This document shows, in pieces, positions 19,878 to 21,890 of a stretch of 41,102 bases of DNA (positions are counted from its first letter, which is position 1; each line of letters begins with the position of its first letter). Under the pieces are notes generated by a model. It was given only the letters and a program-made list of their open reading frames with translations. It was not told the DNA's origin and did not search any database. Both the position numbers and the translations under genes were made by a program. The DNA is from Promethearchaeota archaeon (lineage in GTDB: Archaea; Asgardarchaeota; Lokiarchaeia; Sigyniarchaeales; SOKP01). The stretch spans positions 1-41,102 of the forward strand of contig JAFGGO010000021.1 of the NCBI GenBank assembly GCA_016930515.1, in the 5' to 3' direction.

Positions 19878-20057
19878 TAGATAAATACGATTCATAGCGT
19901 TTCGCTATAACACTGGAAACATTCCGAACCTGGAAGTTAAACTTATTTGCGTCGTCAATAGTACTGCAATTGCGATTTGTGGGAAATGTCGAACTGTAGA
20001 TTTGTCTACGGTCATAGTAAATAAGGTAAATACCCAGAATTGTTTTGTATTTATCTA
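19878..20057 (+). other. Pre-5S processing stem with bulge-helix-bulge-type motif
   Basis: TAGATAAATACGA (19878-90) pairs with TTGTATTTATCTA (20045-57). AACA (19909-12) pairs with TGTT (20041-44). There is a 3-nt bulge AAT (20038-40), a 4-bp helix CTGG (19913-16) / CCAG (20034-37), and AAA (19917-19). Confidence 0.75.
19919..20039 (+). rRNA. rrf: 5S rRNA, circularly permuted gene (canonical 3' part 19919-20000, TTTG linker 20001-20004, canonical 5' part 20005-20039)
   Basis: 5S hallmarks CATTCCGAAC, GGAAGTTAA and AGTACTG..GCGA..TGGGAAA precede CGGTCATAG..TAAATACCCAG. Helix I is ACTGTAGA (19993-20000) / TCTACGGT (20005-12). Helix II is CTTATTTGC (19942-50) / GTAAATAAG (20017-25). Helix III is CTGG-AA-GT (19930-37) / ACCCAG (20032-37). 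Confidence 0.88.
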
Positions 20058-20291: not shown

Positions 20292-21890
20292 ATGGCTTTT
20301 AAATTAGAAGATGTTAGTGGTATTGGGAAAACAACGGCAGATCGCTTACGATCCGCAGGAATTGACGATGTCAAAAAGTTAGCAGCTATTAGCGTCGACG
20401 ATCTAATCGCAATTAAAGGATTTAGTGAAGCTAAGGCTAATTCTCTCATAGAAAACGCGAAAAAATTAATTGAAAGTTCAGCAACGCAAACTACATCCAA
20501 AGATTTAAAAATCCAGAAAGAAACACCATCTAAACTGCCGATAAAAAAAATAGAAGAAAAACAGGAGAATTCGGTAAAATCCTCAAAATCTGGCGGCGCT
20601 AAACCTCGTACTAAGATTTCATTCAAGGACGCAATTAAAAAACAAGCAGAGTGCAATATTGGTCTTGTAGGCCATGTTGATCACGGGAAGACTACATTAG
20701 TAAAAGCTCTTACTGGAGATTGGACTGACAGACATTCAGAGGAACAGGAAAGAGGAATTTCAATCAAACTAGGATATTCTGACGCTACGATCTTGTATTG
20801 TCCTTCCTGTAATCTATATTTAACAGCATATATGGCTGAAGTTGAAAGACAAAAAGGGCAATCTCGTTCTGCTTGCCCTAAGTGTGGAACAGAACTAGAA
20901 TTTAAACGCAATATTTCTTTCGTTGACGCCCCCGGTCACGAGATCTTGATGGCAACCATGCTTAGTGGTGCATCGCTAATGGATGGAGCTTGCTTATTGA
21001 TTGCCGCCGATGAAGATTGTCCTCAACCACAAACGAGGGAACACTTGGCAGCATTGAATATTGCTGGAATAAAAAGAATTATCATCATACAAAATAAGAT
21101 AGACGCCGTCACCAGGGAAAAAGCGCTTGAGAATCATAAGCAGATTAAAAATTTCGTAAAAGGAACCGTAGCTGAAGGCGCCCCTATCATACCTATCTCT
21201 GCGGTATTTGGAGCAAACCTTAACCTCATCGTAGAAGCTTTCGAAGAGATCATTCCTACACCAATACTTAAAGAAAACGAAGATTTTGAATTTTTAGTTG
21301 CTCGCTCTTTTGACATTAATCGTCCTGGTAAAGCTATAGAAGACCTCCGAGGTGGTGTTATAGGTGGATCCGTTTTAAAAGGAAAAGTCAAGATTGGAGA
21401 TAGGATAGAGATAAAGCCTGGATTACATGTAAATAACGATTATGTTCCGATAAAAACAACTGTAGTAAGTATCAGTCAAGGAAAAAACCAGTTTGAAGAA
21501 GCAAAACCTGGTGGTCTCGTTGGACTTGGAACATTGCTCGATCCCGTCCTTACAAAAGGAGATTCTCTCATTGGACAACTCGTCGGAAAGGAGAATTCGC
21601 TCCCTGATGTCATTTCTGAGATCGAGCTCGATATTCACTTGCTTGATCGCGTATTAGGAACGGAAAATCAAATTAAAATTTATGAATTGAAACATAACGA
21701 AAAGTTATTATTGGTCGTTGGGACGGAAAAAACAGCAGGTACGGTTTCAAAAATCATGAAAAATACTTATGTGCTCTCATTAAACCCTCCAATATGCCCT
21801 GCGGAGAATTTTATTTTTGCCATTTCTCGTATCATAAATAGACGTTATCGCCTCATCGGCTATGGTATTCGTGTTAATGGTCAAAAATAA
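20292..21890 (+). CDS. eif2g: Translation initiation factor aIF-2 gamma with N-terminal helix-hairpin-helix fusion
   Basis: NIGLVGHVDHGKTTL, ERGISIKLGY, CPSC/CPKC zinc knuckle, DAPGHEILMATMLSGA, QNKID, RSFDINRPG, RYRLIGYG. An extra ~115 aa precede the G domain. Confidence 0.95.
   Translation: MAFKLEDVSGIGKTTADRLRSAGIDDVKKLAAISVDDLIAIKGFSEAKANSLIENAKKLIESSATQTTSKDLKIQKETPSKLPIKKIEEKQENSVKSSKSGGAKPRTKISFKDAIKKQAECNIGLVGHVDHGKTTLVKALTGDWTDRHSEEQERGISIKLGYSDATILYCPSCNLYLTAYMAEVERQKGQSRSACPKCGTELEFKRNISFVDAPGHEILMATMLSGASLMDGACLLIAADEDCPQPQTREHLAALNIAGIKRIIIIQNKIDAVTREKALENHKQIKNFVKGTVAEGAPIIPISAVFGANLNLIVEAFEEIIPTPILKENEDFEFLVARSFDINRPGKAIEDLRGGVIGGSVLKGKVKIGDRIEIKPGLHVNNDYVPIKTTVVSISQGKNQFEEAKPGGLVGLGTLLDPVLTKGDSLIGQLVGKENSLPDVISEIELDIHLLDRVLGTENQIKIYELKHNEKLLLVVGTEKTAGTVSKIMKNTYVLSLNPPICPAENFIFAISRIINRRYRLIGYGIRVNGQK

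What the first reader, a model, noticed from the sequence alone, without database searches (positions are those of the whole stretch)
19993..20012. 5S helix I is capped by a UUUG tetraloop: mature 5S may be a covalently closed circle
Seen: the normal 3' and 5' ends of 5S are joined by only four nucleotides (ACTGTAGA-TTTG-TCTACGGT), with no spacer or visible processing signal. Inference: after loop C ligation the RNA would have no free ends unless the tetraloop is cut. The ribosome may therefore carry a circular 5S rRNA. Alternatively it may carry an unspliced 5S that is open in loop C, the uL5-contact region.
Basis: inference. Interest (0 to 1): 0.7.

Follow-up and report, generated by a model that had tools for sequence, protein, structure and literature searches.

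The report
Tetraloop-sealed, probably ring-shaped 5S rRNA
This Asgard archaeon encodes its only 5S ribosomal RNA back half first, with the normal ends sealed by a four-base loop and the new ends inside a tRNA-intron-type cut signal, so its ribosome most likely carries a closed 121-base RNA ring; no RNA data could be checked here.

Summary
19993-20012 is 5S helix I (8 bp) closed by UUUG, and it joins the natural 3' and 5' ends of the genome's only 5S-like gene. The gene is circularly permuted. Its ends sit in a relaxed bulge-helix-bulge (BHB) motif whose predicted cuts (19918|19919 and 20039|20040) give a 121-nt ring with a 13-nt loop C.

The layout holds in 120 of 135 genomes of the family and in representatives of 20 Asgard families. 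The 3-nt bulge register pairs in 100 of 103 loci, against at most 11 in other registers. The cap is Y-N-N-G in 102 of 103 loci, is 3-5 nt in other families, and fills the place of the last two helix I base pairs. This favours a kept structural cap over a spacer.

Splicing into a ring is well supported (~0.9) but is inferred from DNA only. That the ring stays closed in the ribosome is also inferred (~0.68), and permuted archaeal tRNA genes with 1-7 nt linkers must still be opened. The scan found this system before on other genomes. I found no paper describing it.

The parts
19993..20000 (+). helix I strand carrying the natural 3' end of 5S
20001..20004 (+). UUUG tetraloop sealing helix I (Y-N-N-G class; second commonest cap in the family after UUCG)
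20005..20012 (+). helix I strand carrying the natural 5' end of 5S
19919..20039 (+). predicted excised and ligated 121-nt 5S ring (3' half 19919-20000, cap, 5' half 20005-20039)
19909..19919 (+). leader side of the relaxed BHB: h' AACA 19909-12, central helix CUGG 19913-16, bulge AAA 19917-19 (cut 19918|19919)
20034..20044 (+). trailer side of the BHB: central helix CCAG 20034-37 (also the helix III 5' strand), bulge AAU 20038-40 (cut 20039|20040), h' UGUU 20041-44
19878..19890 (+). leader arm of the outer processing stem (pairs with 20045-20057)
20045..20057 (+). trailer arm of the outer processing stem
19894..19908 (+). small leader hairpin next to h', present in many relatives; role unknown

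Best explanation
The gene is transcribed as leader, 5S 3' half, UUUG, 5S 5' half, trailer. Leader and trailer pair into a long stem topped by a relaxed (helix-bulge-h') BHB. The two-subunit tRNA splicing endonuclease cuts after the second base of each bulge, and RtcB joins the 5S ends in loop C to give a 121-nt ring with a normal 5S fold. The tetraloop is a structural cap that replaces the last two base pairs of helix I and is not reopened, so the 50S subunit carries a covalently closed 5S rRNA. Shown: gene order, single copy, BHB geometry and covariation, restored consensus, cap statistics, EndA genes. Inferred: cleavage and ligation in vivo (~0.9), and that the ring is the main ribosomal form (~0.75 given ligation).
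For: It is the only 5S-like locus in a 94%-complete genome that has uL18 and uL5. The single-contig chromosome of a relative also has only the permuted copy. The layout is in 120 of 135 family genomes, nearly always one copy. The central helix is 4/4 paired in 100 of 103 loci. The h' helix pairs in 100 of 103 at a 3-nt bulge and in 0-11 at other bulge lengths. Rings are 119-123 nt, or +30/+60 with introns. This genome's own H/h' letters differ from the consensus on both sides and still pair. The cap is Y-N-N-G in 102 of 103 loci and YNMG in 84, and 3-5 nt in 18 loci from 15 other Asgard families, unlike the 1-74 nt linkers of permuted tRNAs (PMC3978253). The cap aligns with the two terminal pairs of the 10-bp helix I of ordinary sister-family 5S. 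In three loci (L024 and L185 by script, L197 by eye) a BHB intron sits next to the cap and its removal rebuilds helix plus tetraloop exactly. Two EndA-family genes are present. Precedents: the permuted SRP RNA stays circular (PMC4731332) and archaeal ribosomes accept circular 23S (PMC12918454).
Against: No RNA evidence was obtained. Permuted tRNA genes of Thermofilum have 1- and 7-nt linkers (PMC3218864) that must be opened for the tRNA to work, so a short linker is no proof of a closed end. UUUG closed by A-U is not the extra-stable C(UUCG)G, and most family caps close with G-C or A-U. RtcB was not found in this assembly, although it is in 58 of 60 family genomes. The BHB conformer is 2.5 kcal/mol above the predicted minimum, because the central helix competes with helix III. 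This genome's tip matches a very degenerate 10-nt A/U-rich cleavage motif from Methanococcus (PMC10515664), but only 14 of 103 tips do.
Confidence: 0.68

Rival explanations
1. The ring is an intermediate. After ligation an endonuclease opens the helix I tip and gives an ordinary linear 5S, as happens with permuted tRNAs and with many circular pre-16S/23S rRNAs.
For: Permuted tRNAs are re-linearised (PMC3978253), even where the linker is 1-7 nt (PMC3218864). Circular pre-rRNAs are reopened in Methanococcus (PMC10515664). Six Asgard families, including the sister family, use an ordinary linear 5S, so the ribosome does not need a ring.
Against: tRNAs must be opened to be charged and are recognised by RNase P and Z through their shape, whereas 5S ends have no such known need (own knowledge). 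The linker never exceeds 5 nt apart from introns and is confined to a stable-tetraloop class. There is no spare sequence to trim and no conserved cut motif at the tip.
Confidence: 0.2
2. The transcript is cut at the BHB (or trimmed) but not ligated, so the ribosome carries a linear permuted 5S that is open in loop C, comparable to the permuted mitochondrial 5S of brown algae.
For: Linear permuted 5S exists (PMC4267664). RtcB is missing from this assembly. EndA cuts alone would release a 121-nt linear RNA that can fold normally.
Against: The break sits at three different places across relatives (loop C, and both sides of loop B) and always restores the consensus to the base. 38 loci carry 29-31 nt BHB introns that require ligation of this same RNA. 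RtcB is in 58 of 60 family genomes. In algae the open ends lie at the three-way junction, not in the conserved loops.
Confidence: 0.08
3. The locus is a scrambled relic or an assembly artefact, and the working 5S gene is unassembled.
For: The genome is a 190-contig MAG, the Rfam score is below threshold, and rRNA genes are often unassembled.
Against: The same layout occurs in 120 of 135 genomes with compensatory changes throughout, and it is the sole copy in a single-contig chromosome.
Confidence: 0.02

Closest known systems
Permuted, circular SRP RNA of Thermoproteus tenax / T. uzoniensis (Plagens et al. 2015, PMC4731332)
   Same: A universal RNA that looks 'missing' from the genome, a gene with swapped halves, new termini in a functional loop, cut by the tRNA splicing endonuclease and ligated, and a mature circle.
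   Different: Here the RNA is ribosomal, the layout spans much of a phylum rather than two species, the junction has moved between sites, extra introns occur, and circularity is not yet shown.
Circularly permuted tRNA genes (Cyanidioschyzon, green algae, Thermofilum pendens; PMC3978253, PMC3218864)
   Same: 3' half before 5' half, BHB at the termini, a circular intermediate, and coexistence with ordinary introns.
   Different: tRNA linkers vary from 1 to 74 nt and are removed. The 5S linker is a fixed stable-type tetraloop with nothing to remove.
Circular 23S rRNA in archaeal ribosomes (PMC12918454) and permuted 23S of Thermococcales (PMC7758197)
   Same: BHB processing gives a ring, and a tetraloop-capped terminal helix is tolerated in the 50S.
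   Different: Those genes are in normal order and the ligation is outside the mature ends. Here the gene itself is permuted and ligation is inside a conserved loop, so it is obligatory.
Permuted mitochondrial 5S rRNA of brown algae (Valach et al. 2014, PMC4267664)
   Same: Helix I is replaced by a closed hairpin in a 5S rRNA.
   Different: The algal RNA stays linear with ends at the three-way junction and has no splice motif.
Low-level circular 5S reads in Sulfolobus and Halobacterium (Danan et al., PMC3326292)
   Same: A circular 5S-sized RNA in archaea.
   Different: Those come from normal genes, are minor, were not validated by RT-PCR and may be decay products.

Membership tests
5S rRNA (RF00001) | Reaches the Rfam gathering score in genomic order | tested here: not met
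   30.8 bits against 38; expected for a permuted gene
5S rRNA (RF00001) | About 120 nt, three-way fold, conserved loop A/B/C/E words after re-ordering | tested here: met
   121 nt; one continuous nhmmer hit (40.5 bits) to a profile of ordinary sister-family 5S; gap-free at the junction; circular fold; covariation
5S rRNA (RF00001) | Expressed and bound in the 50S subunit | not testable with these tools
BHB-processed permuted RNA genes | 3' half encoded upstream of the 5' half, no ordinary copy | tested here: met
BHB-processed permuted RNA genes | 4-bp helix with two 3-nt bulges and h' at the termini; cuts restore the consensus | tested here: met
   relaxed form, the exon-side h helix is not formed
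BHB-processed permuted RNA genes | Splicing endonuclease and ligase encoded | tested here: inconclusive
   two EndA-family genes; RtcB absent from this MAG but in 58 of 60 relatives
Mature circular RNAs (Thermoproteus SRP type) | Dominant mature form is covalently closed | not testable with these tools
   only comparative evidence
YNMG/UNCG extra-stable tetraloops | Y-N-M-G loop, ideally with a C-G closing pair | tested here: not met
   the own cap is a(UUUG)u, Y-N-N-G only; 84 of 103 relatives are YNMG

The most novel reading that the evidence does not exclude
In most Asgard families sampled, including Heimdall-type lineages near eukaryotes, the ribosome carries an obligatorily spliced, covalently closed 5S rRNA whose natural ends have been replaced by a tetraloop. 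5S biogenesis would then depend on the tRNA splicing machinery, and the junction moves and gains introns over evolution.
Probability: 0.62. Interest if true: 0.85.

Novelty: new variant of a known kind. Interest (0 to 1): 0.72.

Why it matters
It explains why 5S genes could not be predicted in closed Asgard genomes (stated in PMC8813620). It would be the first rRNA whose gene must be cut and rejoined inside a conserved loop to become functional, and the first ribosomal 5S ring. Papers on archaeal rRNA processing say circularisation concerns 16S and 23S but not 5S (PMC12918454). It ties ribosome supply to EndA and RtcB in the closest prokaryotic relatives of eukaryotes, and it gives exact, cheap tests (one junction, one tip).

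Tried and rejected

A scan of metagenome contigs for the spliced ring found 0. The positive control with the genomic form also found 0, so that result is uninformative.

The genome contigs pattern was too loose, and bacterial chance hits were filtered out by script.

I first considered that the leader (19883-19918), which Rfam aligns as a 5' half, is a decayed tandem duplicate. I rejected this as the main explanation: it forms the outer stem, a leader hairpin and the BHB, and it breaks the helix I and II pairs.

A BHB register at 19890-19896 / 20037-20045 was rejected because it needs a 5-nt bulge and leaves an insert in loop C.

No promoter was established: the sigma-70 scan is at chance level and a TATA-like word was found in only about 20 of 103 upstream regions, at inconsistent distances.

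The junction search in other families takes the best of many registers without a null model and is supporting only. No family tree was built, so a single versus repeated origin of the permutation is open. One paper look-up, one pattern, one structure string and one strand were mistyped; the first three were corrected.

Full report
Observation. The window reads ACTGTAGA-TTTG-TCTACGGT at 19993-20012, an 8-bp hairpin with one G.U. Alone it is only slightly better than shuffles (z -2.1). Rfam finds nothing at gathering level in the window. A weak RF00001 hit of 30.8 bits at 19883-20002 is the only one in the 4.0-Mb, 94%-complete genome, and word searches found no second copy. The segment 19919-20000 is the 3' half of a 5S and 20005-20039 is the 5' half. 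Together they fold into the 5S three-way shape. The locus lies between an unnamed 175-aa gene and an aIF2-gamma gene. Relatives that carry a name are mostly Promethearchaeota/Lokiarchaeia records.

The junction. Leader and trailer pair in a 13-bp outer stem (19878-19890 with 20045-20057). On top sits a relaxed BHB: h' AACA/UGUU, central helix CUGG/CCAG, bulges AAA and AAU. Cutting after the second base of each bulge (the established EndA rule) gives cuts at 19918|19919 and 20039|20040 and a 121-nt product whose loop C is 13 nt. Re-opened at the tip, it aligns without a gap at the junction to ordinary 5S genes of the sister family and gives one continuous profile hit. The BHB conformer is predicted 2.5 kcal/mol above the minimum because the central helix competes with helix III.

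Comparative test. A covariance model of the permuted core finds 120 of 135 genomes of the family, almost always one copy. A single-contig chromosome has only this copy. Among 103 distinct loci the central helix is fully paired in 100. The three h' pairs hold in 100 of 103 with a 3-nt trailer bulge and in 0-11 with bulges of any other length from 0 to 7. Most loci break in loop B (type A). 29 break in loop C like this one (type B), and their predicted ligation gives the loop C that type A genes encode intact. These loci are kin and not independent, but H and h' vary in compensatory ways. This gene has a letter set found in no other locus, paired on both sides. 38 loci carry a further 29-31 nt insert with BHB geometry (23 in loop C, 13 in helix IV/loop D, 2 in helix I) whose removal restores the consensus. 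Ligation therefore has to act on this RNA. The genome encodes two EndA-family proteins of 197 and 201 aa. By eye one looks catalytic and one structural, which fits the heteromeric type that accepts relaxed motifs (own knowledge). RtcB is missing from this assembly but present in 58 of 60 relatives.

Breadth. Permuted genes were also seen in three other Lokiarchaeia families (L011, L013, L199, L200) and in representatives of 16 further Asgard families, mostly with clear BHB junctions (best-of search). Six families, including the sister family, have ordinary genes. One closed 3.08-Mb genome with two permuted copies matches by size a Heimdallarchaeum genome (inference from size only), and that paper states 5S could not be predicted (PMC8813620).

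Is the tip opened? This is the finding's real question, and only indirect evidence was available. For a kept cap: (i) it is 4 nt with a pyrimidine first and G last in 102 of 103 loci (UUCG 59, UUUG 17, UUAG 16; YNMG 84); (ii) it is 3-5 nt in all 18 loci resolved from other families, with UUCG the commonest; (iii) helix I covaries right up to the closing pair; (iv) 8 bp plus 4 nt occupy the same 20 positions as the 10-bp helix I of some ordinary sister genes, so there is nothing to trim; (v) introns next to the cap rebuild helix and loop exactly; (vi) no cut motif is conserved at the tip (14 of 103 match a degenerate methanogen motif, at 2.8 matches per ring overall). Against: permuted tRNA genes in Thermofilum have 1- and 7-nt linkers that must be opened, this genome's a(UUUG)u is not the extra-stable form, and ordinary linear 5S works in relatives. 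Notes from earlier agents say environmental RNA holds the rejoined form for other genomes. I could not check this, and junction presence would show ligation, not that the ring dominates in ribosomes.

Known systems. It works like the permuted, circular SRP RNA of Thermoproteus. It shares the first step with permuted tRNAs. It differs from algal mitochondrial permuted 5S, which stays linear, and from circular 23S, whose gene is in normal order. Minor circular 5S reads from normal genes were reported but not validated. Searches for a permuted or circular archaeal 5S found no paper, but the library lacks most subscription journals.

Verdict. The feature is real and is part of a conserved, permuted, BHB-flanked 5S gene (about 0.95). 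Splicing into a ring is about 0.9. A ring retained in the ribosome is about 0.68, reopening at the tip 0.2, and an unligated form 0.08. It is a new variant of a known kind, with interest 0.72.

Noticed in passing
window 19913-19933 and 20034-20040, against L027 and L029: Same-genus relatives are type A with helix III CUGG/CCAG. This gene is type B with helix III reversed (CCAG/CUGG), the only such case among the rings scored. It looks as if the junction moved from loop B to loop C by reusing the old leader copy as exon. Type B occurs in four genera, three of which also have type A, which suggests repeated moves.
   Followed up: partly
L056, L078, L101, L131, L149 (loop C); L023, L181-L184, L188-L196 (helix IV/loop D); L024, L185, L197 (helix I): 29-31 nt BHB introns inside permuted 5S genes at several sites; two loci (L187, L197) are about 60 nt longer and probably carry two.
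   Followed up: yes
L013:1380-1530, L296, L302, L311: A hairpin insert sits at the permutation junction itself, which suggests a nested two-step splice at the same site (read by eye).
   Followed up: partly
L011:1400-1530 (minus strand): Family f3 has the break on the 5' side of loop B, a third junction site, also with BHB geometry (read by eye).
   Followed up: partly
L158: The 31-nt loop C intron contains a copy of the neighbouring 5S sequence, a possible young intron made by local duplication.
   Followed up: no
L198 (G054:C109:5267-5382): A second, degenerate partial 5S copy about 700 nt from the intact permuted gene.
   Followed up: no
window 20292-21890: aIF2-gamma with an N-terminal helix-hairpin-helix domain (Pfam HHH_5 at residues 5-58). 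The usual downstream neighbour of the 5S gene in relatives is a different gene.
   Followed up: no
G000 whole genome: No RtcB found by HMM or tblastn; probably an assembly gap (58 of 60 relatives have it).
   Followed up: partly
L061, L076, L088, L063: Loki-type permuted 5S genes lie on contigs whose record titles say Hermod-, Thor- or Odinarchaeota or Bdellovibrionales; probably mislabelled or contaminated bins.
   Followed up: no
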